NCBI GenBank assembly: GCA_005779345.1
Contig: SXJQ01000087.1
Coordinates: forward strand, 1 to 38,341
Origin: Actinomycetota bacterium
Lineage (GTDB): Bacteria; Actinomycetota; Acidimicrobiia; IMCC26256; PALSA-610
Reading direction: 5' to 3'
Length of the DNA: 38,341 nt
Shown here one piece after another: positions 22,638-37,697 of this stretch. Under the pieces are notes generated by a model that worked only from the letters and a program-made list of their open reading frames with translations, ran no database searches and was not told the origin of the DNA. Position 1 is the first letter of the stretch. Each line of letters begins with the position of its first letter. The position numbers and the translations under genes are program-made.

Positions 22638-25088
22638 TTGCGACGGTCCGAGCGGCTCCCCGGGTTCGACGGCCTGCGGGCCGTCGCTGCGCTCGCGGTG
22701 TTCACGTACCACGTCGACTTCTTCGCCGCGGGCCTCGCGGATTCGCTCGGCCACCGCCTGCTGCAACAACTCCGGGTCGGCGTGTGGGTGTTCTTCGCGC
22801 TGTCGGGATTCCTGTTGTACCGGCCGTGGGCGGCCGCGCACCTCGACGGAGCGAAGCGCCCCGACCTGCGTTCGTACCTGCGCAACCGGGCGTTGCGCAT
22901 CCTGCCCGCGTACTGGGCCTGCCTCACGTTCTTCGTCTTCGTCAGCCGCGCCGGCCTCACGTTCGAATCGCCCGTCGGTGTCCTCGCCCGCCAGTACGGC
23001 CTCGTGCAGATCTACGCGCGGTCCGACGCCGGACTCGGCACCTTCCGCGGGTTGCCCCACACCTGGAGTCTCGCCGTCGAGTTGTCGTTCTACGTCGCGC
23101 TGCCCCTCTACGCCGCGCTCGTCGGCGCGGTGGTACGGCGCCGTCCCGGTCGGGCGTTCGCTGTCGAGGTCGGTGGTATCGCCGTGCTCGTCGCACAGTG
23201 GGTCGCCTGGACGGTCGCCACCGACGGCGACGCGGTCCGCCAGCAGTGGCTCCCGAACTTCTCGATGGCGTTCGGCGTCGGGATGTTGCTCGCGGTGCTC
23301 ACGACGGAGCGCGGTGCGGCGACCGCAGTGGCCCGCATCCTCCGCTCGGTCGCGCGACCCGCGCTGCTCTGGCCTGCGGCCGCGGTCGCGCTCGTCGTGC
23401 GCAGCCGGTTCGAGATCCGCGCCGAGAACGGACTCGGCTCCCAAGTGCTGTACGCGCTCGCGGCTGTCGCGCTCGTTGCTCCCTTCGCGCTCGCTGGGGA
23501 GCGAGCGGGCGACTCGGCGATCGGGCGGGTGCTCGGCCATCGCGTCGTCGTCTGGCTCGGCACCGTCTCGTACGGAATCTTCCTCTGGCACTACCACATC
23601 GTCGCGATTGCACGCGACGACTGGCTCGACGCCCCGAGTGGTTGGAACGGCGAGGTCACGCTGGGCGTCGTCGCGCTCGCGGCGACCCTGGTCGGCGCGG
23701 CCGCGAGCTGGTACGTCGTCGAACGGCCGGCGCTCGCCTGGCGCCGACGCGTCGCACCGGTGCTCGCGGAATGGAGCGATCGGCGATTCCGGATATCGCT
23801 CGCGGCGGTGACGGCGGCCGGGTTCGTGTGGCGCGTCGTGTACGTGCTCGGGCAGCGGGGCCGCCAACCGCTGAACGGCGACGCCGCGTACTACCACCTC
23901 CAGGCGACCGCGGTCGCGCGCGGCATCGGTTTCGTCGATCCGTTCCAGTGGGATCAGCTCGGACGCATTCGCCAGAGCGCCGGCCACCCACCGGCCTACA
24001 TCCTCTACCTCGCCGGCTTCACCAAGGTCGGGTTGGGGAGCGAGACGCAGCACCGCCTCGCGTCGTGCCTGCTCGGCGCAGCCGCGATCGCGGTGATCGG
24101 GTTCGCGGGGCGTGCGATCGCGGGGAACCGGGTCGGCGTCGTGGCTGCGTTGGCCGCCGCGGGCTACGCGAACCTGTGGATCAACGACGAGATGCTCATG
24201 TCGGAGAGCATGGCCGCGCTGGCGTTCGCGTTCGTGGTGCTCGCCGTGTACCGCTACGTCGCGATCCCGACCCGGCGGCGCGTGTTGGCGGCCGGCGCCG
24301 CGATCGGATTCGCGGCGCTCAGCCGCGCCGAGCTGCTCGCGCTCGCGGTGCTCATCGTCGTGCCGCTCGTGTGGCGGTGCGTCGGCGATCGCCGTGAGCG
24401 ATTCGTGCAGATCGTCGGTGCGGGCGCGGTGTGCGCCCTGCTCGTGGCGCCGTGGGTGCTGTACAACGTCGGGCGATTCGAGCACCCGGTGCTGATGAGC
24501 AACGGCACCGGCGGCGTACTGCTCGTCGGCAACTGCGACGAGACCTACCACGGCGAACTGCTCGGCTACTGGTACGTCGGGTGTGGTGGCGCGGCCGCGG
24601 TGTCGCTCGTCGGCGACGAGTCGGAGCGCGAAGCGATCTGGCGCGAGCAGGGCCTCACCTACCTCAGCGATCACGTCGAGCGGTTTCCGGTGGTCGCCGC
24701 GGCACGGATCGGCCGCATGTGGGACGTGTACCGACCCGAGCAGAACATCTCGCTCAACATCGCGCTCGAGGGTCGCGGGCGCTCGGCCCCGCGGCTCGCG
24801 TTCTGGCAGTACGTGTTCCTGCTCCCGTTCGCCGGCGCGGGGCTCGTCGCGCTGCGCCGCCGCAGGGTCCCGATCTGGCCGCTGCTCGCAACCGCCGGAC
24901 TGATCACGTTCACCGCGGTGCTGGCGTTCGGGATCACGCGTTACCGCGTTCCGATCGATGTCGCGTTGCCGATCCTCGCGGCCGTCGGCGGCGTCGCTTG
25001 GTGGTCGGGCGAGTTCGGTGCCGCGCGAGCGCCGTCGGCGCGCACGTCTGGGCCCGCTCAGCCGGCGAGGCACTCCGACACGGCGTAG
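22638..25088 (+). CDS. fusion protein: N-terminal Acyl_transf_3 (AT3) acyltransferase + C-terminal ArnT/PMT-like GT-C glycosyltransferase
   Basis: ORF 22359..25088. AT3 motifs: GFDGLRAVAALAVFTYH, FFALSGFLLYRPW, RALRILPAYW, TVSYGIFLWHY. GT-C part: LNGDAAYYH, SAGHPPAYILY, LWINDEMLMSE, RFEHPVLMSNG. The only in-frame start after the divergent gene is TTG 22638, 7 nt after TACGAT (22625-22630), so the start is uncertain. Confidence 0.8.
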   Translation: MRRSERLPGFDGLRAVAALAVFTYHVDFFAAGLADSLGHRLLQQLRVGVWVFFALSGFLLYRPWAAAHLDGAKRPDLRSYLRNRALRILPAYWACLTFFVFVSRAGLTFESPVGVLARQYGLVQIYARSDAGLGTFRGLPHTWSLAVELSFYVALPLYAALVGAVVRRRPGRAFAVEVGGIAVLVAQWVAWTVATDGDAVRQQWLPNFSMAFGVGMLLAVLTTERGAATAVARILRSVARPALLWPAAAVALVVRSRFEIRAENGLGSQVLYALAAVALVAPFALAGERAGDSAIGRVLGHRVVVWLGTVSYGIFLWHYHIVAIARDDWLDAPSGWNGEVTLGVVALAATLVGAAASWYVVERPALAWRRRVAPVLAEWSDRRFRISLAAVTAAGFVWRVVYVLGQRGRQPLNGDAAYYHLQATAVARGIGFVDPFQWDQLGRIRQSAGHPPAYILYLAGFTKVGLGSETQHRLASCLLGAAAIAVIGFAGRAIAGNRVGVVAALAAAGYANLWINDEMLMSESMAALAFAFVVLAVYRYVAIPTRRRVLAAGAAIGFAALSRAELLALAVLIVVPLVWRCVGDRRERFVQIVGAGAVCALLVAPWVLYNVGRFEHPVLMSNGTGGVLLVGNCDETYHGELLGYWYVGCGGAAAVSLVGDESEREAIWREQGLTYLSDHVERFPVVAAARIGRMWDVYRPEQNISLNIALEGRGRSAPRLAFWQYVFLLPFAGAGLVALRRRRVPIWPLLATAGLITFTAVLAFGITRYRVPIDVALPILAAVGGVAWWSGEFGAARAPSARTSGPAQPARHSDTA

Positions 25089-25653: not shown

Positions 25654-25684
25654 CGCCGCCCGGGAACCGAGGGAGACGGGGGAG

Positions 25685-27238
25685 ATGGCCGCGACCGCAA
25701 CGCCCCGATCTGATCCAGCCGCGGCGCAGGTCGTCGTCATCGGTGCCGGCCCTGCCGGGCTCACCGCCGCGTACCACCTCACCAAGGCGGGCGTCACGCC
25801 GACGATCCTCGAGGCCGACGACGTCGTCGGCGGGATCAGCCGAACGGTCGAGCGCGACGGCTGGCGCTTCGACATCGGCGGGCACCGCTTCTTCACCAAG
25901 GTCAAGGCCGTCGACGACCTGTGGTTCGAGATCCTCGGTGAAGACGAGTTCCTGCAACGGCCGCGGATGAGTCGCATCTACTACCGCGGCAAGCTCTACG
26001 ACTACCCCCTCAAGCCGCTGAACGTGCTGCGCAACATCGGGTTCATCGAAGCGGTGCGGTGCGTCGCGTCGTACCTCTGGGTCCGGGTTCGTCCACCGAA
26101 AGACACGAGCAACCTCGAGGGTTTCTACGTGAGCATGTTCGGTTGGCGCCTCTACGGGCATTTCTTCGACCACTACAACCAGAAGGTGTGGGGAGTCCCG
26201 ACCCGCCAGATGTCGGCCGACTTCGGTGCGCAGCGCGTCAAGGGCATGTCGTTGATGACGGCCGTCCGCGAGGGATTCACGCCGAAGTTCGTCAAGAATC
26301 GTCGCAGCAAGGGCCAACAGGTCACGTCGCTCATCGAGTCGTTCAACTACCCGAAATTCGGCCCCGGCCAGATGTGGGAGCGGTGCACCGAGATCGTCAT
26401 CGGGCGCGGTTGCACCGTCGACTTCGGTGCGCGCGTCGTGCGGATCACCCATGCCGACGGACGCGCCGAATCGGTCGTCGTCGAGGTCGACGGTGCCGAG
26501 CGCGCCTATCCCTGCACCCACGTCGTCTCCTCGATGCCGTTTCGCGATCTGATCCGCGCGATCGACCCGCCCGTCCCGCCCGAGGTCCGGGCCGCGGCCG
26601 AGGGGCTCGGCTACCGCGACTTCATCACGGTCGCGCTCGTGGTGCCGCAGGAGTACTCGTTCCCCGACAACTGGATCTACATCCACGACCCCGACGTGAA
26701 GGTCGGCCGCATCCAGAACTTCGGGTCGTGGTCGCCCTACCTCGTGAAGGAGGGCCGCACCTGTCTCGGGCTCGAGTTGTTCGTCAACGAGGGCGACGAC
26801 ACCTGGACGAAGTCCGACGACGACCTCATCGCGCAGGCCAAGCGCGAGATCCAACACCTCGGCCTCGCCGACGCGTCGAAGGTCGAAGCCGGTTACGTCG
26901 TGCGCATGCCGAAGGCGTACCCGGTCTACGACGAGTACTACCAAGCCAACGTGAAGGTGCTGCGCGACTGGATCGCGGCGAACGCGCCGAACATCATGCC
27001 GACCGGTCGCAACGGCATGCACAAGTACAACAACCAGGATCACTCGATGCTCACCGCCATGCTGTCGGTCGAGAACATCCTCGGCGCCCATCACGACGTG
27101 TGGACCGTCAACGTCGAGTCCGAGTACCACGAGGAACAGATGGGAAGCGACGCCCCCTCGTCGGGTCGTGACGCGCCGGTGCTGCCGAGGGCGGCGATCG
27201 AAGCCGCGGCCCGGCAGCGGCAGGCGGCGGCCGACTGA
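25685..27238 (+). CDS. FAD-dependent oxidoreductase (amine-oxidase / UDP-galactopyranose-mutase-like fold)
   Basis: 517-aa ORF with the dinucleotide fold VVVIGAGPAGLTAAYHL..EA and DIGGHRFF. It is preceded by GGGAG/GGGGGAG Shine-Dalgarno sequences at 25671-25684. Confidence 0.8.
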   Translation: MAATATPRSDPAAAQVVVIGAGPAGLTAAYHLTKAGVTPTILEADDVVGGISRTVERDGWRFDIGGHRFFTKVKAVDDLWFEILGEDEFLQRPRMSRIYYRGKLYDYPLKPLNVLRNIGFIEAVRCVASYLWVRVRPPKDTSNLEGFYVSMFGWRLYGHFFDHYNQKVWGVPTRQMSADFGAQRVKGMSLMTAVREGFTPKFVKNRRSKGQQVTSLIESFNYPKFGPGQMWERCTEIVIGRGCTVDFGARVVRITHADGRAESVVVEVDGAERAYPCTHVVSSMPFRDLIRAIDPPVPPEVRAAAEGLGYRDFITVALVVPQEYSFPDNWIYIHDPDVKVGRIQNFGSWSPYLVKEGRTCLGLELFVNEGDDTWTKSDDDLIAQAKREIQHLGLADASKVEAGYVVRMPKAYPVYDEYYQANVKVLRDWIAANAPNIMPTGRNGMHKYNNQDHSMLTAMLSVENILGAHHDVWTVNVESEYHEEQMGSDAPSSGRDAPVLPRAAIEAAARQRQAAAD

Positions 27239-27240
27239 CG

Positions 27241-28485
27241 ATGCCGGGCGTGGCCCCCGGCCCGGCGCACGCCTCGGCCCAGCTCGAGTCCGGTCGGCCG
27301 CACGTCGCGGGGCTCGAAGGCCTGCGGGCGCTCGGCGCCGTCGCGGTGTTCGTGAAGCACTCGAGCCTCGCGACCGGCAAGCAGTACGACACTGGCTGGG
27401 CGTGGCTGAACCACTTCGAGATCGGCCCGACACTGTTCTTCGTGCTGTCGGCGTTCCTCGTCTACCAGCCGTTCGCTGCCGCGCACCTCGCCGGACGGCC
27501 GCTGCCGTCGTTGACCCGATTCGCTCGGCATCGCGTGCTGCGCGTGGTCCCGGCGTACTGGGTTGCCCTCGCAATCATGCTCGTGTTCCTGCGCGCTCCC
27601 GAGCAGGGGTCGTTCGGGTTGCACGTGCGCGACGCTCGCTCCGTACTCCAGTTGTTCACGTTCACGCAGATCTACGACCCGGTCCGCTTCTTCGACGGCA
27701 TCGCCGCCGCGTACACGCTGTGCGTCGAGGTGTCGTTCTACGTGTTCGTGGCCGGTTGGGTCGTGCTGGTGCGGCGAATCGCGCCGCGCGCTGCGGCGCC
27801 GGCGCAACGCCTGCGCGTCGAGTTCGCCGGCATCGGCGTGCTCGTCGGCCTCGCGCTCGGCTGGCGGTTCCTCGTCGGTTTCGTGTTCCGGCCCGACGGT
27901 GACGCCGTGTGCAGCGCGACCTCGACCCACTGGACGTGCGCGGCCGCGAACTGGCTACCGGGCTACCTCGCGTACTTCGCGCTCGGCATGTTGCTCGCGG
28001 TGCTGGTGGTTTGGACGCGCGGCCACGGGCCGATCACCGCGTTCGACCGCGCGAGCGACCGCACCGTGCCCTGGCTCGTGCTCGCCGGTGGCGTGTTCTG
28101 GCTCTACAGCGCGCGCTACGGCACACGCGGGCTCGACTCGCGCACGGGTATCGACGGCGAGGTGCGGCACCTCCTGAACGGTCTCATCGTGTTGGCCGCG
28201 ATCGTGCCGTTGCTCGGGCGCCGCCGATCGCGGTATCGATCGTTGCTCGCCGGGCGGCCGCTCGTGTACCTCGGTGTCGTGTCGTACGGGTTCTACCTCT
28301 GGCACCAGGCATTCATCGATCGGCTCATGATCTGGACCGACGCGCGGCCGTTCGACGGATCGTTCGCCGTCGTCGCGCCAACCGCGTTCGCGCTCGCGGT
28401 CGCTGCTGCCGCCGTGAGCCACCGCGCCATCGAGGAGCCGATCCGACGCCGCCGCGACGGGTTGTTGGTCGGGGCCCGCACATGA
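27241..28485 (+). CDS. Acyl_transf_3 (AT3) family membrane acyltransferase
   Basis: 414-aa ORF with GLEGLRALGAVAVFVKH, FFVLSAFLVYQPF, RVLRVVPAYW and VVSYGFYLWHQ. It starts 2 nt after the flavoprotein stop. Confidence 0.85.
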   Translation: MPGVAPGPAHASAQLESGRPHVAGLEGLRALGAVAVFVKHSSLATGKQYDTGWAWLNHFEIGPTLFFVLSAFLVYQPFAAAHLAGRPLPSLTRFARHRVLRVVPAYWVALAIMLVFLRAPEQGSFGLHVRDARSVLQLFTFTQIYDPVRFFDGIAAAYTLCVEVSFYVFVAGWVVLVRRIAPRAAAPAQRLRVEFAGIGVLVGLALGWRFLVGFVFRPDGDAVCSATSTHWTCAAANWLPGYLAYFALGMLLAVLVVWTRGHGPITAFDRASDRTVPWLVLAGGVFWLYSARYGTRGLDSRTGIDGEVRHLLNGLIVLAAIVPLLGRRRSRYRSLLAGRPLVYLGVVSYGFYLWHQAFIDRLMIWTDARPFDGSFAVVAPTAFALAVAAAAVSHRAIEEPIRRRRDGLLVGART

Positions 28486-30917
28486 CCGCCACGACCGAGA
28501 CCGATCCGATCGTCACCCGGCCGTCGGATCCGGGTCGCATCCTCGGGCTCGAGGGTTTGCGTGCGATCGCGATCGCCGCGGTGTTCCTCACGCACACCGG
28601 ATACGTCACCGGCGTGACAGGTCGGTCCGACTGGGGCGCGTTCCTCGGCCGCCTCGAGATCGGCCCCACGATCTTCTTCATGATCTCGGCGTTCCTCCTC
28701 GGCCTGCCGTTCGCCGAGGCGAACCAGGCGGGCGCCCGTGCGCCGAGCGCCCGCCGGTTCCTGCGGCGCCGCGCGGTGCGGGTGTTCCCCGCGTACTGGC
28801 TGACGCTCGTCCTGTTGTTCGTGGTCTTCGGGGTCGACGTCGACGGGTTCGGCGACGTCGTACGGCTCGCGACCCTGACCCACATCTACAGCGACGATGG
28901 GTTCTTCTCGGTGTCGGTGCTCGTCCCCACGTGGACACTTGCGACCGAACTCGCGTTCTATGCGTTTCTCCTCGGCTGGGCCGCGGCGGTGCGCCGCATC
29001 GGTCGCGACCGCGACGCGGCAGGCCGTTTGTCGCTCGAACTGATGCTCGTCGGCGTCCTCGTGGTGATTGCGTTCGCCTTCCGGGCGCTCGTCGACGCCG
29101 AGATCGGGCTCCCGGCCGTCGCGGAGTTCTGGCTGCCGGGCCAGCTCGACATCTTCGCGGTCGGCCTCGGGTTCGCGTCGATCGTCGCCTACGTGCGCGT
29201 CACCGGCAACACGCCGCGGCTCGCGACGCTCGTTCGGCGAGGCCCCGATGTCGTCGTCGGCCTCGCCGGGCTCGCGTACCTCGGCGTGCCGCTCTTCACC
29301 AACGTGAGTCGCGGGCTGGTGCTCACGAACGAGACCTCGCTCGACGGCCACCTCGCCCACGCGTTCTACCTGCTGTGTGCCACGCTGCTCCTGGCCCCGA
29401 TCGCGTTGCGCTCGCCGGCGCGCAGCGCGTATCTCTGGTTCGTGCGGTTGCGGCCGGTCGCGTACTTCGGGCTCGTGTCGTACGGCTTCTACCTCTGGCA
29501 CGACCACTTCATCGTCGAGACGGCGGGCTGGTCGGGCGGCACGTTGCTGCCCTACCCGCACGCCGACTTCTGGATCGTCGCGAGCGCGGCCTTCGCGCTG
29601 AGTCTCGTCGCGGGATCGATCAGCTACCACGTCGTCGAGCGGCCCGCGCTCGACCTCGACGCCGGTCGCTTCGCCGCGCTGCGAGCGCGGGCGCGAGAAG
29701 CATCGAGCATCGTGCCCGCCGTCATCGCCGGGACGCGCACCGCGGCGACGAACTTCGACCTGTTCGATGGTCTCCGCGCGATCGCCGCGCTCACGGTCGT
29801 GCTGCACCACGTCGCCCTACCCACCGGGAGGCAGAACAACGGCTTCTGGGCGTCCTATCTCACCGAGTTCGACGTCGGCGTCGCGATCTTCTTCCTCATC
29901 TCGGGCTTCTTGCTCTACCGGCCGTTCGTCACGCGCGCCCTCGGCGACGAACCGGAGCCGCCGCTCGGTCGGTTCCTCGTGCGTCGGGCCGTGCGGATCT
30001 ACCCCGCCTACTGGTTCGCGCTCGCCGGCATCCTGGTTTTCGTCGGGTTCCAGGCGCCCGTCGCCGACGGCCTGCCCCAGTACCTCAGCTACTTCGGGCT
30101 CGTGCACGTGTACTTCCGCGACTGGGCGGCAGGCGGGATGTCGCAGGCGTGGACGCTGGCCGTCGAGGTGACGTTCTACCTGTTCCTCCCGGTGTGGGCG
30201 GCGCTCGTGCGCCGCCTCGGTGCGGGCCGGTCCGGCGTCACGCGCGTGCACCTCCAGCTCGGCGCGCTGGCGGCCATGTATCTGTTCGCGGTCGCGTTTC
30301 GCGCGTACTGCTACTGGGGCGCGGGCGACGACCTGGCGTTCCTCGGCGTCTACTGGCTGCCGGCGAACCTCGACCTGTTCGCGCTCGGTATGGGTGTCGC
30401 CGTGGTGAGCGCGGGCGCGCAGGCCGGTGTCGTCTCGCAACGGGTCACCGCGCGGCTCGCAACGATCGGGTCGTGGTCGTGGCTCGGCTCGATCGGCGCG
30501 TTCGTCGTGCTGTGCAACGCGTTCGATCTCCCGCTCGGTATCGCGGTTCGCCCCGACGGTTGGCAGGGACACGTGAAGCAGGCGACCTTCGGGCTGGTCG
30601 CGCTCGGGCTGTTGCTCCCCGCGGTCTTCGCGACGGCCGGCCGCGATCCGATTCGGCGGCTGCTCGCGTGGCGTCCGCTCGCCTATTGCGGCGTCGTGTC
30701 GTACGGCATCTACCTGTGGCACCAGGCATGGGCGAAGAAGGCCGTCGGTTGGCAGGCGCGCCCGTTGTTCGCCGCCGACTTCGTCACCGTGCTCGCGGCG
30801 ACCCTGGCGCTCACGCTGCTGGCGGCATCGGTCAGTTGGTTCGTGGTCGAACGCCCGCTGATGCGGGCCGTCCACCGCAAGATCGTGGCGCGCCCGCCGA
30901 TGGAACCGGTGGCATGA
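28482..30917 (+). CDS. tandem AT3-AT3 double acyltransferase (two complete Acyl_transf_3 domains in one ORF)
   Basis: ORF 27909..30917 trimmed to ATG 28482 (ATGA overlap 28482-28485). Domain 1 has GLEGLRAIAIAAVFLTH, FFMISAFLLG, RAVRVFPAYW and LVSYGFYLWHD. Domain 2, from about nt 29751, has FDGLRAIAALTVVLHH, FFLISGFLLYRPF, RAVRIYPAYW and VVSYGIYLWHQ. No stop codon separates the domains. Confidence 0.8.
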   Translation: MTATTETDPIVTRPSDPGRILGLEGLRAIAIAAVFLTHTGYVTGVTGRSDWGAFLGRLEIGPTIFFMISAFLLGLPFAEANQAGARAPSARRFLRRRAVRVFPAYWLTLVLLFVVFGVDVDGFGDVVRLATLTHIYSDDGFFSVSVLVPTWTLATELAFYAFLLGWAAAVRRIGRDRDAAGRLSLELMLVGVLVVIAFAFRALVDAEIGLPAVAEFWLPGQLDIFAVGLGFASIVAYVRVTGNTPRLATLVRRGPDVVVGLAGLAYLGVPLFTNVSRGLVLTNETSLDGHLAHAFYLLCATLLLAPIALRSPARSAYLWFVRLRPVAYFGLVSYGFYLWHDHFIVETAGWSGGTLLPYPHADFWIVASAAFALSLVAGSISYHVVERPALDLDAGRFAALRARAREASSIVPAVIAGTRTAATNFDLFDGLRAIAALTVVLHHVALPTGRQNNGFWASYLTEFDVGVAIFFLISGFLLYRPFVTRALGDEPEPPLGRFLVRRAVRIYPAYWFALAGILVFVGFQAPVADGLPQYLSYFGLVHVYFRDWAAGGMSQAWTLAVEVTFYLFLPVWAALVRRLGAGRSGVTRVHLQLGALAAMYLFAVAFRAYCYWGAGDDLAFLGVYWLPANLDLFALGMGVAVVSAGAQAGVVSQRVTARLATIGSWSWLGSIGAFVVLCNAFDLPLGIAVRPDGWQGHVKQATFGLVALGLLLPAVFATAGRDPIRRLLAWRPLAYCGVVSYGIYLWHQAWAKKAVGWQARPLFAADFVTVLAATLALTLLAASVSWFVVERPLMRAVHRKIVARPPMEPVA

Positions 30918-32116
30918 GCGTCGCGACCCCGGCCCCCTCATCGGTTCGTCCGCACTACGCGGGGTTCGAGGGGTTGCGCACCATCGGCATGACCGCCGTG
31001 TTCTTCGCCCACCTCGGCTTCATCACCGGGGTCACGCTCGGGCGCGACTGGGCGGCACCGCTCGGTCACCTCGAGTTCTCGGTCGCGATCTTCTTCATCG
31101 TCTCGGCGTTCTTGCTGTATCGCCCGTTCGCGCTCGCGCATCTCCGCGGCGCACCGGTGCCCGACCTCGGGCTGTTCGTGTGGCGGCGGATGTTCCGGAT
31201 CTTCCCGGCATACTGGGCGACGCTCGCCGTGATGCTCGTGTTCCTCGGCGTCGACTCCGGTGGGGCCGGCCACCTCGCCCGGCTGTTCACCCTCACTCAT
31301 GTGTACACCGAGTGGGGGTTCACCGCGATCGACGTGCTCGTGCCGACGTGGACACTCGCCGCCGAGTTGATCTTCTACTTCTTCATGATCGCTGCCGCGG
31401 TCGCGCTCCGGCGGTTCGCGGCACGCGCGACCACCGCCGCGGAGCGACTTGCCGCGGAGCTGTGGCTCGCCGCGGGGGCGTTCGGGTTCGCGATGGCATG
31501 GCGGGCGTTCGTCTACTTCGCCGATGTCGTGCCCCACGTGGCCGAGCACTGGTTCCCCGGGACACTCGATGTCTTCGCCACGGGCATGGCGTTGGCCGCG
31601 GTCAGCGCGTTCCGGGAGTTGAGCGGTGAGGCGCACCCGGTCGTCGATCGCGTCGAGCAGATCGCGCGGCGGGGGAGTTGGAGTGCAGTCGGCGCGTTCG
31701 CTTGCTTCATGGCCGTCCCGGTGTTCCTCGACGTCGACCGGTTCATCGAGCTCGAACCCGACTGGCAGGTATTCGTCCGCAACTTGTTGCTCCTCGCTTC
31801 GGCGGCGCTGCTCGTGGTGCCGATCGTGCTCGGCGGCAACGACCGCGGCTGGTACCGGCGGTTCCTCGAGGTGAAGCCGATCGCCTATCTCGGCCTGACC
31901 TCGTACGGGCTCTATCTCTGGCACGATTTCTGGCTCAAGAAGGCGACGTTCGAGTGGATCGAGATCCACAACCTCGAGACGAAGTTCGCGATCATCGGTG
32001 TCATTGCCTTCGCGCTCGCCGCGCTGTGCGGCACGGCCAGCTTCCGCCTCGTCGAGCAGCCCGCCCAACAACTCGGGACCCGCCTGCGGGCGCGCCTGTT
32101 CCGGCAATCGCTGTGA
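30914..32116 (+). CDS. Acyl_transf_3 (AT3) family membrane acyltransferase
   Basis: ORF 28931..32116 trimmed to ATG 30914 (ATGA overlap 30914-30917). Motifs: GFEGLRTIGMTAVFFAH, FFIVSAFLLYRPF, RMFRIFPAYW, LTSYGLYLWHD. Confidence 0.85.
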   Translation: MSVATPAPSSVRPHYAGFEGLRTIGMTAVFFAHLGFITGVTLGRDWAAPLGHLEFSVAIFFIVSAFLLYRPFALAHLRGAPVPDLGLFVWRRMFRIFPAYWATLAVMLVFLGVDSGGAGHLARLFTLTHVYTEWGFTAIDVLVPTWTLAAELIFYFFMIAAAVALRRFAARATTAAERLAAELWLAAGAFGFAMAWRAFVYFADVVPHVAEHWFPGTLDVFATGMALAAVSAFRELSGEAHPVVDRVEQIARRGSWSAVGAFACFMAVPVFLDVDRFIELEPDWQVFVRNLLLLASAALLVVPIVLGGNDRGWYRRFLEVKPIAYLGLTSYGLYLWHDFWLKKATFEWIEIHNLETKFAIIGVIAFALAALCGTASFRLVEQPAQQLGTRLRARLFRQSL

Positions 32117-32117
32117 C

Positions 32118-33605
32118 TCAGTACCAGTAGAGGCCGATGCGGAGGGCCGCGAACGCGGCGAGCGCCGACACCGTCGCGATCGCCAGGCCGGTCGTCGCGG
32201 ATCGTGTCGACGGGACACTTCCGACATCGGTGCTCCGGTGTGTCGACGCAAGCGCTGCGAGCCCGACGACGGGGAAGAGGTAGCGGCCCTGGAACTCGTC
32301 GATGCGCGGGGCTCCCACAGCGTTCCACCCCGTGTAGGCGAGCAGGAACACCGCGCCGGTGGTTGCGACGACCACACCCCACGTCACGAACGCATCGGAG
32401 CGAGCGACACCGCCGGGCGATCGTGCACGGCGTCGTCGATCGGGCGCGACGACGAGCACCAACGCGGCCCCGACGAGCAGCACGACCGCGACCGCGCCGG
32501 CCGACGCGAACGGTCGCCACGGCAGTTGCGCGACGGCATCGCGCGGGATCTCGACCCCGTCGCGCGCGACCGTCCGACCCATCGCGGCCACGAAATCGAG
32601 CGGGTGCGCGCGCACGAATCGGAGCGGGGCGTCGGGGTCGACGTCGTGGTAGGCGTACCCGTCGTTGGTGACGGCGGTCGGGTCGTACGGGTTCTCGAGC
32701 GGCACGTAGATCGACTGGGCGTAGCCGCTCCACGCCGCGAAGAGGATCGCGGCGGGCACGAGCACGGCCGCGAGCGCGACTCCGCCCGCCGCGCGACGGC
32801 GCAGGACCACGGGGACGAACATGACGAGCAGCAGCACGTAGGGCGGCTTCGCGAGGCCCAGCGCGGCTGCGACGATCGCGATCTCGATCAACAGGTGCCG
32901 ATCGAGGGGAGTCTCGGGGTCGGCTGCGTGCCGCGCGAGCACCACCGCGAGCAACGCGAGCGCGATCGTGAGCGAGTCGGCGGTGATCATCGCCGACTGC
33001 GCGACCGCGACCGGGGCGAGGCCGAGCACCGCGACCACCCACGCCGCGCTCCCGGCCCGGCGGACTGCGCGCCGCACCACGAGCACGTACGCGATCAGAG
33101 CACCGAGGCGAGCGAGGAGGAGCGCAGCGAAGGTCGAGAGGCCGACGATGCGTGCGAGCCCGACCCCGATGGCCGAGCCCGCATAGGGAATCGGTGAGTA
33201 CACCGCGCCGGTCGAGATCCCGAGGTTGCAGGCCGGACCGCCCGGGGCAGGGTCGTCGATCGTCCGCCAGGCGTCGGCGGCGCCCCCAGGTCCGAGGCCC
33301 GTGCGGCTCGCGTCGAGCAGGCCGCGCGCGTAGATCTCGCGCGTGTCGTCGAGCAGGTCGGCGGGGAAGGTCCCGACCACCGTCGGGCCGCGATCGGTGC
33401 CGCCGCCGCACAGTTCGACCGACCCCGTGCGCTCGTTGATCCAGTCGCCGCCCGACACCTGCCAGGCGCGAAGGACGTGCACCGGCTCGTCGGCGCCGCC
33501 GAGTTGGGGGACGGCGATCGCGAAACCGAGGCCCAGCAACGTCGCGAGCAGTGTGAACGTACCGACCGGCGATGTTGACCATGTCACGACGCGACCCGCG
33601 GGCAC
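32118..33605 (-). CDS. DUF2142-like polytopic membrane protein (putative GT-C type glycosyltransferase)
   Basis: ORF 32118..33638. The N-terminal loop motif GADEPVHVLRAWQVSGG (DE..H..RA.Q.S.G) is the pattern I associate with DUF2142. Start is GTG 33605, 8 nt after TAGTTT (plus strand 33614-19), or GTG 33638 as the longest option. Confidence 0.65.
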   Translation of the reverse strand: MPAGRVVTWSTSPVGTFTLLATLLGLGFAIAVPQLGGADEPVHVLRAWQVSGGDWINERTGSVELCGGGTDRGPTVVGTFPADLLDDTREIYARGLLDASRTGLGPGGAADAWRTIDDPAPGGPACNLGISTGAVYSPIPYAGSAIGVGLARIVGLSTFAALLLARLGALIAYVLVVRRAVRRAGSAAWVVAVLGLAPVAVAQSAMITADSLTIALALLAVVLARHAADPETPLDRHLLIEIAIVAAALGLAKPPYVLLLVMFVPVVLRRRAAGGVALAAVLVPAAILFAAWSGYAQSIYVPLENPYDPTAVTNDGYAYHDVDPDAPLRFVRAHPLDFVAAMGRTVARDGVEIPRDAVAQLPWRPFASAGAVAVVLLVGAALVLVVAPDRRRRARSPGGVARSDAFVTWGVVVATTGAVFLLAYTGWNAVGAPRIDEFQGRYLFPVVGLAALASTHRSTDVGSVPSTRSATTGLAIATVSALAAFAALRIGLYWY

Positions 33606-33630: not shown

Positions 33631-35175
33631 GTGAGCACCGTGGCCGTCGACGATGCGGCCGAGCCGGGCCGCGGGGCACTCGCGGCGCCCGGTAGCCCCG
33701 GTTCCTCGGGGCCGTCGCCTCGTGAACGGCTCGCGGTGCGCGTGGTGACCGGTGCGTTCCTGGTCGCGCTCTTCGCGTACGCGGGCGTGATCGTGTTCGG
33801 CGCGTCGCCGCTGCGCGGCAGCCCTGCCTGGCCCGACTACGTGCCGGGCCACGTCATGTTCGGCACGGATTCGGCCGGCTACTATCGGGCCTCGCATCAC
33901 GTGTGGTGGGAGCGGGGCTTCTTCGGTGCGCCGATGATCTACCCGCTGCTGCTCCAGGTGCTCGTTCGCAATCTCGTCGCCGTCGTACTCGTGCAGACCG
34001 CGCTGTACGGCGCCGCGTGGATCTGGCTCGCGCGGGTGTCGGCGCGGTTCGCGGCACGGCCGACGATGCGCATCCTGATCGCCGCGATCCTCTTCGCGCT
34101 CGCGCTCTCGCCGGAACTGTTGTTGTGGACGGCGTCGATCTCGACCGAGACGTTGTCGATCGCGCATGCCGTGGCGTTCCTCGCCGCGCTCGTGTCGGTG
34201 GCCGAGCAACCGACGCTCCGGCGCTGGACGGTGCTCGTCGGGCTCGTGGTGCTCGGCGCGCTGTTGCGCGACTCGAACACGGCGATCGCGCTGCTCGTGC
34301 TGCCCGCCGGTGTCGTCGCCGCGGTGCGGTTCCCCGCGTGGCGCCGCTTCGCGCTCGCCTCCGCCGTGGTCTGCACCGTCGTCGCGTTGGGCGTGTCGTC
34401 GCTCGCGAACATCGGGTCGGTGCCCTACGCGGGCGACGACTGCGACGTTCCGCCCACGAGCGACGACTGCCCGCCGCGGTGGCTGTATCCGTTGATGGAC
34501 ACGATCGTGATCCGGGTCGTGCGCGACGAGGGGTCGTACGACTGGTTCGTTGCCCGGGGCATGCCCGACGCCGCGGTGGTGAAGAAGTACACCGACGTCT
34601 ACGAACTCGACATCGGCGAGTTCAAGGAGCCGCAGTTCGACGAGTTCCGCGAGTGGATCTACTCCGAGGGGCGCACGAGCTACCTGTGGTTCCTCGTGAC
34701 GCATCCCCGTTACACGTTGTGGCGACCGGTCCTCGCCGACGAACAGATCTTCCTCCCGGGATCCGACTCGAATCTCGCGCCCGAGACCCGGCGTTCCTAC
34801 GGTGCCTACACGGGGTCGACCCCCGGCGCGATCTACGGCTGGTTCGGGGCGGCCGCGTTCTGGCGTTGGCTCGGATTGGTCGAGGTGTGGGCGCTCCTCG
34901 TGGTCCTGGCGCTGAGCGGCCTTCCCGCGACGCCGCTGCGTCGCGACGGCCGGCTGCGGCTCGCGCTCGGCGTCGGCTTCGCGGTCGGCCTGCTCCATGC
35001 GGTGGCGAACTACCACGGCGACGCCGCCGAGGTCGGGCGGCATGCGATCGCACCGAACGCTCAGCTCCGGGCGATCCTGTGGGTCACGACGTTGCTGGCG
35101 ATCGATCGGTGGTGGTCGAGGCGCCGATCTCGGCAGGTGCCGGAGGGTGACCTCGTAGCCGATCGATCAGGCTGA
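33631..35175 (+). CDS. polytopic membrane protein of unknown function with a soluble central loop
   Basis: ORF 33343..35175 trimmed to GTG 33631, 7 nt after TAGTGT (33618-33623). It has several hydrophobic segments and a Cys-containing hydrophilic segment (DDCDVPPTSDDCPPRW). I recognised no family motif. Confidence 0.55.
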   Translation: MSTVAVDDAAEPGRGALAAPGSPGSSGPSPRERLAVRVVTGAFLVALFAYAGVIVFGASPLRGSPAWPDYVPGHVMFGTDSAGYYRASHHVWWERGFFGAPMIYPLLLQVLVRNLVAVVLVQTALYGAAWIWLARVSARFAARPTMRILIAAILFALALSPELLLWTASISTETLSIAHAVAFLAALVSVAEQPTLRRWTVLVGLVVLGALLRDSNTAIALLVLPAGVVAAVRFPAWRRFALASAVVCTVVALGVSSLANIGSVPYAGDDCDVPPTSDDCPPRWLYPLMDTIVIRVVRDEGSYDWFVARGMPDAAVVKKYTDVYELDIGEFKEPQFDEFREWIYSEGRTSYLWFLVTHPRYTLWRPVLADEQIFLPGSDSNLAPETRRSYGAYTGSTPGAIYGWFGAAAFWRWLGLVEVWALLVVLALSGLPATPLRRDGRLRLALGVGFAVGLLHAVANYHGDAAEVGRHAIAPNAQLRAILWVTTLLAIDRWWSRRRSRQVPEGDLVADRSG

Positions 35176-37654
35176 TCACCGCACCGGCCGCGAGCACCGT
35201 GATCAGCGCGTCGACGGGTGCTCGGTATCGCGTGATGCCGAATGTGGTCGCGGCGGTGATCGTGATGGCGGCCGCGACCGCGAGGAACGGCAGGATCGGG
35301 ACCTTGCGACGCCGGAGCAAGAACAGCCCCACGATCGCGAACGGCAACATCGCGAAGTACTGCACGGTCGCGAGGTACGACTGCCAGTCGCCGCGCCCCT
35401 CGAGCGCGGCGTTGAACGGATGGATGTTCTGGCGGACGAACCAGAGGTCCCACATGCGCGCGACTCGGAGCGCGGCCATGCGCGGTTGCTGGCCCGGGTG
35501 GTCGCCGATGTAGTCGAGACCCCGCGCTCGCCACTCGATTTCCTTCTCGGACTCGTCGCCCGCTTGGAGCGGGCCGAAGCCTTCGGCGCAACCGACGCTC
35601 CAGTAGCCGAGGTAGGTGTCGCCCGCGCCGCCGTTGCCGTAGGTGATGTCGCAGTTCGCCACCATCAGCACGCTGCCGATGCCGTTCGACATGAGCACGG
35701 GGTGCTCGAACCGGGTGAGGTTGAACGCGAACCAGGGGGCGAGGACCAGGCCGCCGACCACGCAGGCGACCGCCGCGAATCGGACCCGCTCGCGGACCGG
35801 ATGGCTTCGCAACAAGAGCGCGAGCGGCACGACGAGGAGCGGGAACAGGGCCATTGCCTCGGCTCGGCTCAACGCGGCCATCGCAACGCCCGCGCCCATC
35901 CCCACCGCGGTCGCGAACCGCGGGTCGCGCCAGAAGCGGTAGGTCGCGAGCAGGGCCACGGCCGTCCACAGTTGGTACATGCCCTCCGACATCAACATCT
36001 CGTCGTTGATCCAGAGGTGCGCGTACGCACCTGCGAACGCGGCGGCGAGCCAACCGGCGCGCTCGTCGTCGAAGATCCGACGCGCGAGCAGGCCGAGCAG
36101 GAACACCGCGCCGGCACCGAGCAGTGTCGACGCGATGCGGTGCGTGAGTTCGCTCCGACCGATGAACTTGGAGACACCAGCGAGGTAGAGGAGGTAGTTC
36201 GGCGGGTGGCCCGCGCTCGGCGTGATGCGCCCGAAGATGTGGTACTTGCCGGGGTCGACGAACCAGAGACCATCGGCGATGTCGTTCGCTTGGGTGTGGT
36301 AGTAGTACGCGTCGCCGTTCAGCGGTACGCGGCCCCGGCTGATCACCACGTAGAAGAGTCGCCAGGCGAAGGCCGCGACCGTGATCAGGGTGAGGCCCAC
36401 GAAGAACGGTGGCCGAAAGCCGCGGCGGCTGATCGCGATCGACGGTCGTTCGAGCAGCCACCAGCTCGCCGCGCCGAGCAGCGTCGCGCCGATCGCGCTG
36501 AGCACGAAGATCTTCACGAACGTGAGGCTCTCGCCGCCGGTGAACCAATGCTGCGACAGCCAGTCGACGAACGCGTAGTGCCAGAGGTAGAAGCCGTACG
36601 ACACGAGCCCGATGAACGCGAGTGGCCGCCAGGCGAGCAGGCGCCGGATCGCTCCGCCGTCGGACGCGGTTGCGCTGGTGTCGAGCACACTCGGCCGGAT
36701 CACCGCGGGGATCACGAACAAGACCGCGATGAGCCCACCAGCGAACCGTTCGGCGACCTGTTGACGGGCCGTGATCGAGAACGGCGCGAGCGGGTCGATG
36801 CCGATCCCTTGGACGAACACGAAGAACGTGAGCGCGCCGCCGAGCCAGGGGATCCAGGGCCGTCGCGCGACGAACGCGTAGAGCGGATGCACGACGGTAC
36901 GGCGACGCGCGCCGACGTCGATCGCCGCGAGGAGCATCCCGAATCCGAACTGGCCGAGGTAGTGGGGGAGCACCCGGAGCGGCACCGCGAGCGCGTGATG
37001 GCGGCCGTACCAGACGAACAGCGGCCCGATCACGACGAGCGCGAGCGCGCCGACGATCTCGACGCGCAAGCGCGTGGTCGCGCGGACCCGAGCACCCCCG
37101 AGCGCGCGCGTCAGGAGCCGCAGCGCCCAGGCCCAGAGCGGGACGAACAGGTAGAAGCTGATCTCGACGACGAGTGTCCAGGCGTGACGCAGTCCGTAGT
37201 TGGCATTCGCATCGAGCGAGGGCACGTAGCCCTGGAACAGCAGGTAGTTGCGGATCCCGACGTCGGCGCTCGGGAGGCTCTTCGCCGCGGAGAACGCCAC
37301 GATGAGCGACAGCGCGACCCAGTAGGCCGGGTAGATGCGCCAGAACCGTTTGGAGAAGAAGCGCAACGCGTCGGGCGGTCGGGCGGCGCCGACGTGCGCG
37401 GCGACGAACGGCCGGTACACGAGGAACGCGGAGACGACGAAGAACACGGCCACGCCCATGTTGAGCTGCTGGACGGCGAGCCCGAGCGGGAACGTGAAGA
37501 TCCCGACGACGTCGATCTCGCTGCGGACCGCGCCGCTCGCGTCGCCGACGTGGGTCACGAGCACGGCCAGGGCGGCGAGGGCGCGCAGTCCGTCGAGCGC
37601 GCCGAGGCGGTCGGAGGGCGCCGCGGCCGGATCGTTCGGAGCGGTCGCCGTCAC
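35084..37654 (-). CDS. fusion protein: N-terminal AT3 acyltransferase + C-terminal ArnT/PMT-like GT-C glycosyltransferase (paralog of 22638..25088)
   Basis: ORF 35084..37897. AT3 motifs: LDGLRALAALAVLVTH, FFVVSAFLVYRPF, RFWRIYPAYW, LVSYGFYLWHY. GT-C part: LNGDAYYYH, SAGHPPNYLLY, LWINDEMLMSE, RFEHPVLMSNG, FGITRYRAPVD. Start is GTG 37654 (8 nt after TAGATT, plus strand 37663-68) or ATG 37699. Confidence 0.8.
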   Translation of the reverse strand: MTATAPNDPAAAPSDRLGALDGLRALAALAVLVTHVGDASGAVRSEIDVVGIFTFPLGLAVQQLNMGVAVFFVVSAFLVYRPFVAAHVGAARPPDALRFFSKRFWRIYPAYWVALSLIVAFSAAKSLPSADVGIRNYLLFQGYVPSLDANANYGLRHAWTLVVEISFYLFVPLWAWALRLLTRALGGARVRATTRLRVEIVGALALVVIGPLFVWYGRHHALAVPLRVLPHYLGQFGFGMLLAAIDVGARRRTVVHPLYAFVARRPWIPWLGGALTFFVFVQGIGIDPLAPFSITARQQVAERFAGGLIAVLFVIPAVIRPSVLDTSATASDGGAIRRLLAWRPLAFIGLVSYGFYLWHYAFVDWLSQHWFTGGESLTFVKIFVLSAIGATLLGAASWWLLERPSIAISRRGFRPPFFVGLTLITVAAFAWRLFYVVISRGRVPLNGDAYYYHTQANDIADGLWFVDPGKYHIFGRITPSAGHPPNYLLYLAGVSKFIGRSELTHRIASTLLGAGAVFLLGLLARRIFDDERAGWLAAAFAGAYAHLWINDEMLMSEGMYQLWTAVALLATYRFWRDPRFATAVGMGAGVAMAALSRAEAMALFPLLVVPLALLLRSHPVRERVRFAAVACVVGGLVLAPWFAFNLTRFEHPVLMSNGIGSVLMVANCDITYGNGGAGDTYLGYWSVGCAEGFGPLQAGDESEKEIEWRARGLDYIGDHPGQQPRMAALRVARMWDLWFVRQNIHPFNAALEGRGDWQSYLATVQYFAMLPFAIVGLFLLRRRKVPILPFLAVAAAITITAATTFGITRYRAPVDALITVLAAGAVISLIDRLRGHPPAPAEIGASTTTDRSPATS

Positions 37655-37662
37655 GACGGAGC

Positions 37663-37690: not shown

Positions 37691-37697
37691 TGACCTC

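What the first reader, a model, noticed from the sequence alone, without database searches (positions are those of the whole stretch)
28482..30917. Tandem AT3-AT3 double acyltransferase in one 811-codon ORF
Two complete AT3 motif sets occur in the same frame. Domain 1 ends with HVVERPALDLD near 29657 and domain 2 begins with FDLFDGLRAIAAL at about 29751. They are joined by an Ala/Arg-rich linker of roughly 30 residues with no stop codon. An in-frame GTG at 29712 could also allow separate initiation of domain 2. A protein of about 20 TM helices with two acyl-translocating modules is unusual. It suggests two different acyl modifications, or an obligate pseudo-dimer in which one half may be regulatory.
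Basis: seen in the sequence. Interest (0 to 1): 0.65.

Follow-up and report, generated by a model that had tools for sequence, protein, structure and literature searches.

The report
Two neighbouring acyltransferase genes fused
One 811-codon gene in an uncultured Acidimicrobiia-like bacterium encodes two complete membrane sugar-acyltransferase (AT3) modules because two neighbouring genes, separate in every more distant relative examined, merged; this is a real but fairly ordinary gene fusion, of interest mainly as a hint that such enzymes may work side by side.

Summary
ORF 28482..30917 (+) encodes 811 aa with two full Acyl_transf_3 (PF01757) domains joined by a 32-residue Ala/Arg-rich linker. 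It is not an artefact: a relative about 10% diverged in nucleotide sequence, from another sample and assembler (L002), keeps the same 811-codon frame and gene order. Both halves are under purifying selection (dN/dS 0.17 and 0.08). The linker evolves fastest (0.46) but has no indel or stop. Both halves keep the motifs shown to be essential in characterised AT3 enzymes (R-X10-H, FFxIS, RxxR).

The ORF is the middle of an operon of four AT3 modules (A, B-C, D) with ATGA overlaps, inside a conserved envelope-glycan locus rich in GT-C glycosyltransferases. In at least eight syntenic loci from Acidimicrobiia and other Actinomycetota MAGs, the orthologues B' and C' (45-50% identical) are separate adjacent genes, with ATGA/GTGA overlaps at all five junctions read base by base. 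The fusion is therefore recent and lineage-specific, and one frameshifting indel could have made it. GTG 29712 is most likely the relic start codon of C.

AT3-AT3 proteins are rare but arose independently at least three times. The idea of a regulatory or degenerate half is not supported. Physical pairing of the halves remains untested.

The parts
28482..30917 (+). Fused gene B-C: 811-aa double AT3 (Acyl_transf_3) membrane acyltransferase
   Evidence: ORF and translation. Two PF01757 stretches. The same 811-aa ORF occurs in L001 and in the diverged L002.
28482..29657 (+). Module B (aa 1-392): AT3 domain 1 with R27-X10-H38, F65-F66-x-x-S69 and R97-x-x-R100
   Evidence: Alignments A1 and A3. B orthogroup has 92% bootstrap. 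dN/dS is 0.167. Ten long helices in the AF2 model.
29658..29753 (+). Linker (aa 393-424, DAGRFAALRARAREASSIVPAVIAGTRTAATN): the former C-terminal tail of B plus the former N-terminal leader of C; predicted cytoplasmic and flexible
   Evidence: Coordinates and composition. Compared with B' tails and C' heads in unfused relatives. pLDDT is below 50 for residues 400-422. dN/dS is 0.46 with no indel between the window and L002.
29712..29714 (+). In-frame GTG (Val411): probable relic start codon of the formerly separate gene C
   Evidence: Window V-P-A-V aligns with the free C' N-termini M-T-A-V (L003) and V-T-T-A-V (L009). All five unfused junctions that were read are ATGA or GTGA overlaps. The GTG is conserved in L002 but has no conserved SD upstream.
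29754..30914 (+). Module C (aa 425-811): AT3 domain 2 with R432-X10-H443, F470-F471-x-x-S474-G475 and R502-x-x-R505
   Evidence: C orthogroup has 91% bootstrap, 98% when L004 is included. dN/dS is 0.080.
27241..28485 (+). Gene A: single AT3 acyltransferase (414 aa); its stop overlaps the start of B-C (ATGA)
   Evidence: A orthogroup has 100% bootstrap.
30914..32116 (+). Gene D: single AT3 acyltransferase (400 aa), a paralogue of B; its start overlaps the stop of B-C (ATGA)
   Evidence: D is sister to the B orthogroup with 100% bootstrap.
22638..25088 (+). AT3 + PMT_2 (GT-C glycosyltransferase) fusion protein, 816 aa
   Evidence: Pfam. Conserved in the syntenic loci.
25685..27238 (+). FAD-dependent oxidoreductase (PRK07208 type), the conserved upstream neighbour of the AT3 array
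   Evidence: NCBIfam NF005548, 735 bits. Synteny.
32118..33605 (-). DUF2142 membrane protein, a conserved neighbour
   Evidence: Pfam. Synteny.
35084..37750 (-). Second AT3 + PMT_2 fusion protein
   Evidence: Pfam: AT3 at residues 51-425, PMT_2 at 515-674.
37698..38339 (+). GT2 polyprenyl-phosphate sugar synthase (PpgS-like), cut by the window end; followed by DUF2304 in L001
   Evidence: NCBIfam NF058614, 112 bits, below its cutoff of 370. L001 gene table.
15418..21195 (+). Upstream part of the glycan locus: PMT_2-like, PIG-V-like and PMT_2-like GT-C membrane proteins, then a GT2-methyltransferase
   Evidence: Pfam.

Best explanation
The 811-codon ORF is a real, lineage-specific fusion of two neighbouring, translationally coupled AT3 acyltransferase genes, B and C. 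They belong to a conserved operon (FAD oxidoreductase, A, B, C, with D present in some lineages) inside an envelope-glycan locus of Acidimicrobiia-like Actinomycetota.

In the ancestor, B ended and C began at an NTGA overlap. One frameshifting indel (+1 or -2 nt) in the last ~14 codons of B put B into the frame of C and bypassed the stop. The old B tail and the old C leader became a cytoplasmic Arg/Ala-rich linker of about 32 residues, and GTG 29712 is the fossil start codon of C. An AT3 domain has 10 TMH with both termini in the cytoplasm, so joining two head to tail needs no extra helix.

Both modules remain catalytically competent. Inferred: each moves an acyl group from a cytoplasmic acyl-CoA to a different position or sugar of an extracytoplasmic glycan built by the neighbouring GT-C glycosyltransferases from polyprenyl-phosphate sugars. 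The fusion replaces translational coupling with covalent 1:1 coupling and co-localisation.

Shown: the ORF, the two domains, the motifs, purifying selection, the synteny, and the unfused state in relatives. Inferred: the exact mutation, the topology, the donor and acceptor substrates, and any benefit of the fusion.
For: (1) Two PF01757 stretches lie in one frame with a coding GC3 signature across the junction.
(2) The same 811-aa ORF and the same A / B-C / D / DUF2142 order occur in L001 (12 nt differences) and in L002 from a different sample (248 nt and 62 aa differences, dS about 0.31). The linker has about 31 substitutions over 105 nt, with no indel or stop.
(3) dN/dS is 0.167 for B and 0.080 for C, compared with 0.126 and 0.125 for the neighbours A and D.
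(4) R/K-X10-H, FFxIS(G/A) and RxxR are present in both halves. These residues are essential in OafA, OafB and Oac (PMC7448272).
(5) Reciprocal BLAST and bootstrapped NJ trees place the N-half in a B orthogroup (92%) and the C-half in a C orthogroup (91%).
(6) In syntenic loci L003, L005/L006, L007, L009=L014, JGI 3300047160, L016, L017 and L018, and on the short contig L004, B' and C' are separate genes. All 12 B-type orthologue clusters are single proteins of 410-438 aa.
(7) All five unfused junctions that were read are ATGA or GTGA overlaps. The B' tail and C' head match the window's linker in length and in motifs (ERPALDxDA..., (M/V)-T/P-A-V).
(8) The AF2 model has 10 long helices per half and a low-confidence linker. 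AT3 is described as 10 TMH with N-in and C-in termini (PMC9833829).
(9) No promoter-like site and no excess of terminator-like sites occur inside the array.
Against: No biochemical or expression data exist for any member, and the organism is uncultured. L001 and the window may derive from the same read set, so independent confirmation rests mainly on L002. The fusing mutation cannot be located exactly. The acceptor glycan and acyl donors are unknown. The AF2 model is only of moderate quality (pLDDT 72, from a 7-sequence alignment), so the topology is inferred and not shown. A selective advantage of the fusion is not demonstrated; it could be neutral.
Confidence: 0.85

Rival explanations
1. Sequencing or assembly artefact: a spurious indel in a high-GC region merged two separate genes into one apparent ORF.
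For: All more distant orthologues are separate genes with a 4-nt overlap, so a single-base error would be enough to create an apparent fusion. Long accidental ORFs are common in this 70% GC DNA.
Against: Three assemblies from three sources (NCBI, ENA, Logan) give the same 811-codon frame. L002 differs at 248 nt, including about 31 within the linker, yet keeps the frame and the length. C is under strong purifying selection, and in this lineage it has neither an overlapping upstream stop nor an SD of its own.
Confidence: 0.03
2. Pseudo-dimer with one degenerate or regulatory half: only one AT3 module is catalytic, and the other serves as a scaffold or regulator.
For: This pattern is common in other duplicated membrane proteins. 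B has Ala in place of Gly in FFxISG. B evolves about twice as fast as C (dN/dS 0.167 against 0.080).
Against: Both halves keep the TMH1 Arg and His, FFxIS and RxxR. OafA G46A was fully active (PMC7448272). A and D, which are free-standing enzymes, carry the same Gly-to-Ala change. Both halves have dN/dS well below 1. Orthologues of each half exist as independent proteins in at least 8 loci.
Confidence: 0.07
3. Dual products: besides the 811-aa protein, internal initiation at GTG 29712 (the old start of C) still produces a free C protein. This can hold together with the best explanation.
For: GTG 29712 sits where the ancestral start is expected and is conserved in L002. Actinobacteria often use GTG starts and weak or absent SD sequences (general knowledge).
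Against: There is no conserved SD-like sequence upstream in the window or L002. In relatives, C' appears to depend on termination-reinitiation at the NTGA overlap, and that mechanism is lost once the stop is gone. GTG is also simply a Val codon.
Confidence: 0.15
4. Rosetta-stone heterodimer: B and C, and perhaps AT3 proteins generally, work as a physical side-by-side pair, and the fusion fixes a pre-existing interaction. This can hold together with the best explanation.
For: B' and C' are adjacent and translationally coupled in every relative. AT3-AT3 fusions arose at least three times independently. Other neighbours in the locus also fuse: AT3+PMT_2, and AT3+PMT_2+DUF2142 in L005. pTM of 0.64 for a two-domain model is higher than expected for wholly undefined relative placement. 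The PDB hits to HGSNAT include two chains of one entry, 8vli_A and 8vli_B. From my own knowledge, HGSNAT is a homodimer.
Against: No interface could be examined, because neither PAE nor coordinates were available. The linker is long, fast-evolving and predicted disordered, as expected for a passive tether. Adjacent paralogues with NTGA overlaps fuse easily by one indel, so recurrence may reflect mutational ease and not function. The reviews read do not mention AT3 oligomers.
Confidence: 0.3

Closest known systems
Stand-alone (AT3-only) carbohydrate O-acyltransferases, e.g. Shigella Oac, Salmonella WbaK, Legionella Lag-1 (PF01757)
   Same: Each half is a complete AT3 domain with about 10 TMH, the R/K-X10-H motif in TMH1, FFxIS(G), RxxR, and no extra soluble domain (PMC7448272, PMC9558356).
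   Different: Here two such domains, from different orthogroups, are covalently joined in one polypeptide of about 20 TMH. Sequence identity to characterised enzymes is too low to assign a substrate.
AT3-SGNH fused acyltransferases (OafA, OafB, OatA)
   Same: They are also natural fusions in which an AT3 domain is joined to a partner that acts on the same glycan. The essential TMH1 Arg/His and the RxxR motif are shared.
   Different: This protein has no SGNH domain and no 11th TMH. The partner is a second AT3 domain and the linker is cytoplasmic, not periplasmic. The AT3-SGNH-specific motif GG-F/Y-xGV-D was not looked for.
Other AT3-AT3 double proteins from metagenomes (P0002-P0005, P0011, P0080, P0163)
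   Same: They share the two-PF01757 architecture, are 803-846 aa long, keep the catalytic motifs in both halves, and sit in similar GT-C-rich glycan loci.
   Different: They are not orthologous fusions. In P0002-P0005 the mainstream or C-like module (C-type in P0003) is the N-terminal half, and the C-terminal half is of the W_E/L4_g3 type. The halves of P0011 and P0080 are each other's closest relatives. They share only 27-39% identity with the window protein.
Mycobacterial envelope AT3 enzyme SucT and the PpgS (Rv3631-type) / DUF2304 / GT-C system for arabinogalactan decoration
   Same: An actinobacterial context in which AT3 acyltransferases sit next to GT-C glycosyltransferases and a polyprenyl-phosphate sugar synthase with a DUF2304 partner.
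   Different: There is no SucT-level match: the best is gene A at 19.6 bits against a cutoff of 1275. The PpgS-like match is below its cutoff. The glycan of these Acidimicrobiia is unknown.
HGSNAT / TmAT superfamily
   Same: The literature reports a shared 10-TMH transmembrane acyl-transfer fold (PMC12423673). HGSNAT is the only PDB hit with an appreciable Foldseek probability (0.63).
   Different: The match is not statistically significant (E=1.8, TM 0.25-0.33), and there is no sequence similarity.

Membership tests
Acyltransferase-3 (AT3, Pfam PF01757 / IPR002656) | Match to the PF01757 profile above the gathering score, over nearly the full profile length, in each half | tested here: met
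   Two stretches, 142.6 bits in total against a cutoff of 31; the better one covers 428-780, profile positions 4-323 of 326. The N-half aligns in full with A, C and D at 33-43% identity.
Acyltransferase-3 (AT3, Pfam PF01757 / IPR002656) | R/K-X10-H motif in TMH1 (OafA R14 and H25, both essential) | tested here: met
   B has R27 and H38. C has R432 and H443. Both are invariant across all 7 double proteins and all 4 window modules. The motif definition is from PMC7448272.
Acyltransferase-3 (AT3, Pfam PF01757 / IPR002656) | FFXISG motif in TMH2 and RXXR motif near TMH3 | tested here: met
   B has F65-F66-M-I-S69-A and R97-A-V-R100. C has F470-F471-L-I-S474-G475 and R502-A-V-R505. The Gly-to-Ala change in B matches a substitution that was harmless in OafA (G46A).
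Acyltransferase-3 (AT3, Pfam PF01757 / IPR002656) | [quoted passage not shown] | tested here: inconclusive
   The AF2 model shows 10 long helices per half, and the Lys/Arg distribution fits N-in and C-in. However, the model has only pLDDT 72, and no dedicated topology predictor or experiment was available.
Acyltransferase-3 (AT3, Pfam PF01757 / IPR002656) | Transfers an acyl group from a cytoplasmic donor to an extracytoplasmic carbohydrate | not testable with these tools
   Requires biochemistry or genetics.
AT3-SGNH fused acyltransferases (OafA/OatA type) | C-terminal SGNH/GDSL domain preceded by an 11th TMH | tested here: not met
   PF01757 is the only Pfam family found in the 811-aa protein. 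SGNH-bearing relatives such as P0022 and P0029 are detected by the same approach.
SucT (NCBIfam NF058601, mycobacterial AT3) | Score above the equivalog cutoff (1275 bits) | tested here: not met
   There is no hit for B-C. Gene A scores 19.6 bits over 70 residues only.
TmAT superfamily (HGSNAT-like fold) | Significant structural similarity of the 10-TMH core to a solved member | tested here: inconclusive
   Foldseek against 8vli_A gives prob 0.63, E=1.8 and TM 0.25/0.33. The model quality is moderate, and the query held two domains.

The most novel reading that the evidence does not exclude
The fusion is a 'Rosetta stone' showing that AT3 acyltransferases act as side-by-side hetero-oligomers, within a larger membrane complex with GT-C glycosyltransferases, and not as independent monomers. 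The repeated independent AT3-AT3, AT3-PMT_2 and AT3-PMT_2-DUF2142 fusions in these loci would then mark the subunit contacts of an extracytoplasmic glycan assembly and decoration machine in Actinomycetota.
Probability: 0.25. Interest if true: 0.55.

Novelty: new variant of a known kind. Interest (0 to 1): 0.3.

Why it matters
AT3 proteins acylate surface glycans in all domains of life, and how they work is still being resolved. The two reviews and the structural papers I read list AT3-only, AT3-SGNH and AT3-alanine-racemase architectures, but not AT3-AT3.

A natural, selected tandem fusion shows that two AT3 pores can be synthesised and inserted as one 20-TMH chain. It also identifies which two enzymes of a multi-acyltransferase operon are most likely to act together. 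It offers a ready-made single-chain construct for structural work and a testable hypothesis of AT3 pairing.

For annotation, it shows that an ~800-aa protein called 'acyltransferase family protein' can hide two enzymes. It also gives a clean example of how NTGA-overlapping genes fuse in a single mutational step. Beyond that, it is an ordinary gene fusion in an uncultured soil or sediment actinobacterium.

Tried and rejected
(1) A 74-sequence MAFFT alignment (A2) was meant to give depth for structure prediction. It stacked every single-domain protein, and even the other doubles, onto the C-half, so I discarded it and used a 7-sequence doubles-only alignment (A3).
(2) phmmer against PDB sequences gave only chance hits (LpxL, PsaK).
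(3) Foldseek of the AF2 model against the PDB gave no significant match. HGSNAT appeared only weakly.
(4) My first attempt at a bootstrap tree timed out and was redone with a faster distance routine.
(5) A crude Kyte-Doolittle TM scan was noisy and over-split the helices. I used it only for the charge distribution.
(6) NCBIfam gave no functional name for B-C, D, DUF2142 or the AT3-PMT_2 proteins.
(7) The sigma-70 and terminator scan found nothing informative, and this consensus is of doubtful relevance to Actinomycetota.
(8) L019 (an Actinomycetes MAG chromosome) showed AT3 fragments scattered across frames inside a 1772-codon stop-to-stop frame. I judged it uninterpretable, possibly because of assembly indels, and did not use it.
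(9) I looked for relatives between 51% and 90% identity to date the fusion. None exist in the 5.8-billion and 1.84-billion protein libraries.


Full report
**Observation.** The window carries an ATG-initiated ORF at 28482..30917 (+) of 811 codons. Pfam detects two Acyl_transf_3 (PF01757) stretches (E=2e-41). Between them lies a 32-residue linker with 10 Ala and 5 Arg, and an in-frame GTG sits at 29712. GC3 stays at 0.80-0.93 in this frame across the junction (N-half 0.93, linker 0.83, C-half 0.91), and the frame has no stop between 29400 and 30000.

**Immediate context.** The ORF is not isolated. Upstream, 27241..28485 encodes a 414-aa AT3 protein (A). Downstream, 30914..32116 encodes a 400-aa AT3 protein (D). 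Both junctions are ATGA overlaps. The four modules (A, B = N-half, C = C-half, D) are 32-43% identical to each other and share about 65 invariant positions. No promoter-like site and no excess of terminator-like sites lie inside the array.

The wider region, about 15.4-38.3 kb, is an envelope-glycan locus. It holds three GT-C-like membrane proteins (PMT_2-like, PIG-V-like, PMT_2-like), a GT2-methyltransferase, two AT3-PMT_2 fusion proteins, a PRK07208-type FAD oxidoreductase, DUF2142, a PpgS-like polyprenyl-phosphate sugar synthase and DUF2304. That makes seven AT3 modules in roughly 15 kb.

**Is the fusion real?** The exact-sequence cluster of the protein has three members, all 811 aa: the window itself (NCBI contig, 38,341 nt), an ENA contig (L001; 12 nt and 4 aa differences), and a Logan contig from another sequencing run (L002, SRR22387974; 248 nt and 62 aa differences). 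L002 has the same order: A (414 aa), B-C (811 aa), D (400 aa), DUF2142.

Between the window and L002, dS is about 0.31. dN/dS is 0.167 for B, 0.080 for C, 0.126 for A and 0.125 for D. The linker (aa 391-425) is the fastest-evolving segment, with dN/dS 0.46 and about 31 substitutions in 105 nt, yet it has no indel and no stop.

C is strongly constrained, and in this lineage it has no upstream stop for coupling and no conserved Shine-Dalgarno sequence. It must therefore be translated as part of the fused chain. This rules out a sequencing artefact for practical purposes.

**Are both halves functional?** Work on OafA, OafB and Oac defines an R/K-X10-H motif in TMH1 (both residues essential), FFXISG in TMH2, and an essential RXXR motif (PMC7448272).
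- B has R27-X10-H38, FFMISA (65-70) and R97-x-x-R100.
- C has R432-X10-H443, FFLISG (470-475) and R502-x-x-R505.

These positions are invariant across all seven double proteins. The Gly-to-Ala change in B also occurs in the free-standing A and D, and it corresponds to a substitution that was harmless in OafA (G46A). Neither half looks degenerate.

**Origin of the fusion.** An exhaustive search of 1.84 billion representative proteins found stand-alone proteins as the closest relatives of each half: P0133 (422 aa, 48%) for the N-half, and P0131, P0132, P0134 and P0135 (47-51%) for the C-half. A search with the N-half alone found 12 orthologue clusters at 46-50% identity, all single proteins of 410-438 aa, after which identity drops to 38% or less.

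Their genomic contexts are syntenic with the window: AT3(-PMT_2), a small reverse-strand ORF, the FAD oxidoreductase, then AT3 A', AT3 B', AT3 C', sometimes one more gene, then DUF2142, AT3-PMT_2, GT2, DUF2304 and HpaB (L003, L005/L006, L007/L008, L009; a JGI contig carries four single AT3 genes).

Reciprocal BLAST and a bootstrapped NJ tree give these orthogroups: B (window, L002, L003, L005, L007, L009; 92%), C (the same loci, 91%; 98% with L004), and A (100%). D is sister to the B group (100%). MAG titles place the relatives in Acidimicrobiia, Actinomycetes or Actinomycetota, and there too B' and C' lie in different frames (L016-L018).

The unfused state therefore holds in at least eight syntenic loci, and the fused state only in the window lineage. 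No relatives between 51% and 90% identity exist in the libraries, so the fusion can be dated only to the branch leading to the window and L002.

**Mechanism of fusion.** All five unfused B'/C' junctions that could be read are 4-nt overlaps: ATGA in L003 and L007, GTGA in L004, L005 and L009. The window's ...ERPALDLDAGR... matches the B' tail of L005 (ERPALDVDARR...) in the same frame. V411-P-A-V matches the N-termini of free C' proteins (M-T-A-V in L003, V-T-T-A-V in L009). So the linker is the old B tail plus the old C leader, and GTG 29712 is most likely the fossil start codon of C. A single +1 or -2 indel in the last ~14 codons of B would shift B into the frame of C and take the TGA out of frame. 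The exact site cannot be recovered.

**Topology and structure.** AT3 domains are described as 10 TMH with both termini cytoplasmic, and AT3-SGNH proteins need an 11th helix to place SGNH outside (PMC9558356, PMC9833829). An AT3-AT3 fusion needs no extra helix. An AlphaFold2 model built from a 7-sequence alignment of double proteins (pLDDT 72.3, pTM 0.64) shows 10 long helices in each half and a low-confidence linker at residues 400-422. The Lys/Arg-rich loops and linker fit a cytoplasmic location. Foldseek found no significant PDB neighbour. The only hit with an appreciable probability is human HGSNAT (8vli, prob 0.63), in line with the proposed TmAT superfamily (PMC12423673). I could not inspect inter-domain contacts, so the pseudo-dimer question remains open.

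**How rare is the architecture?** Among the best 150 of 18,808 hits in the representative library, only P0002, P0003, P0004, P0163 and P0080 (plus the query's own cluster) are AT3-AT3 doubles. Much more common partners are PMT_2 (GT-C), SGNH and others.

The doubles are not orthologous to the window's fusion. In P0002-P0005 the mainstream or C-like module (C-type in P0003) is N-terminal, and the C-terminal half groups with the AT3 of AT3-PMT_2 proteins and with L004 gene 3 (92-94% bootstrap). The halves of P0011 and P0080 are each other's closest relatives (100%). The architecture therefore arose at least three times. P0002 and P0004 are each seen in two independent samples and sit in comparable GT-C-rich loci, one of them with an AftD-like protein. 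In L005 the neighbouring AT3-PMT_2 and DUF2142 genes are themselves fused into one 1367-aa ORF.

**Interpretation.** The best-supported reading is a young, selectively maintained fusion of two adjacent, functionally distinct AT3 acyltransferases in an operon that decorates an extracytoplasmic glycan. The donor is presumably an acyl-CoA, by analogy with characterised AT3 enzymes. The acceptor and the acyl groups are unknown.

The fusion may be nearly neutral, given that one indel is enough, the topology is compatible, and 1:1 stoichiometry was already provided by translational coupling. It may instead fix a physical B-C partnership. The recurrence of fusions among neighbours in these loci keeps that second, more interesting reading alive at about 0.25-0.3. 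Internal initiation at 29712 is possible but has no positive evidence.

**Literature.** Full-text searches found no description of AT3-AT3 tandem proteins. The AT3 review lists AT3-only, AT3-SGNH and AT3-alanine-racemase architectures. I could not consult Pfam or InterPro architecture tables, which probably list such proteins. I therefore rate this as a new variant of a known kind, of modest interest.

Noticed in passing
window 22638-38339 (also L001, L003, L005, L007, L009): Seven AT3 modules lie within about 15 kb: two AT3-PMT_2 fusions plus A, B, C and D. They sit in a locus that is syntenic across Acidimicrobiia and other Actinomycetota MAGs (FAD oxidoreductase, AT3 array, DUF2142, AT3-PMT_2, PpgS-like GT2, DUF2304, HpaB). 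The glycan this locus builds is unknown.
   Followed up: partly
L005 10849-14949 (-): In this relative the AT3-PMT_2 gene and the neighbouring DUF2142 gene form one 1367-aa ORF (AT3 40-406, PMT_2 506-667, DUF2142 906-1322). This is another fusion between neighbours of the same locus.
   Followed up: partly
window 30914-32116 (gene D); JGI 3300047160 contig: D is a paralogue of B that branches outside the whole B orthogroup. It is absent from L003, L005, L007 and L009, whereas a JGI contig has four single AT3 genes (399, 419, 402 and 409 aa). D was therefore either lost repeatedly or gained in some lineages.
   Followed up: partly
window 37698-38339 (+) and L001 19217-20523: A GT2 resembling the mycobacterial polyprenyl-phospho-GalNAc synthase PpgS (112 bits, below its cutoff) is followed by a DUF2304 gene. 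From my own knowledge, this pairing recalls the Rv3631/Rv3632 pair that supplies a GT-C enzyme decorating arabinogalactan.
   Followed up: no
window 33631-35175 (+), 21104-22501 (-), 25058-25453 (-): Three conserved ORFs of the locus have no Pfam family. The 514-aa one has homologues at the same position in L003 and L004 (30-33% identical) and a faint WsfD-like match. A small reverse-strand ORF between the AT3-PMT_2 gene and the FAD oxidoreductase recurs in all syntenic loci (154-202 aa).
   Followed up: no
window 3-1121 (+) and 10600-10929 (+): A GGDEF/EAL protein (cut by the window start) and a stand-alone PilZ-domain protein lie upstream. These c-di-GMP signalling parts are not far from a surface-glycan locus.
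   Followed up: no
L019 6012-11330: In an 'uncultured Actinomycetes' chromosome-level MAG, AT3 fragments homologous to B/D and to C are spread over different frames inside a 1772-codon stop-to-stop frame. This may reflect assembly indels or decayed genes.
   Followed up: no
L010 11769-14282 (+): Next to the double-AT3 gene P0002 lies an 838-aa protein with one N-terminal AT3 domain and about 450 C-terminal residues that match no Pfam family. The same locus also carries an AftD-like GT-C protein of about 1490 aa.
   Followed up: no
L001 and L005 (both from ENA ERZ27257034): The fused-gene lineage and an unfused relative (B' 47% identical) occur in the same metagenome assembly. The two forms therefore coexist in one habitat.
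   Followed up: no
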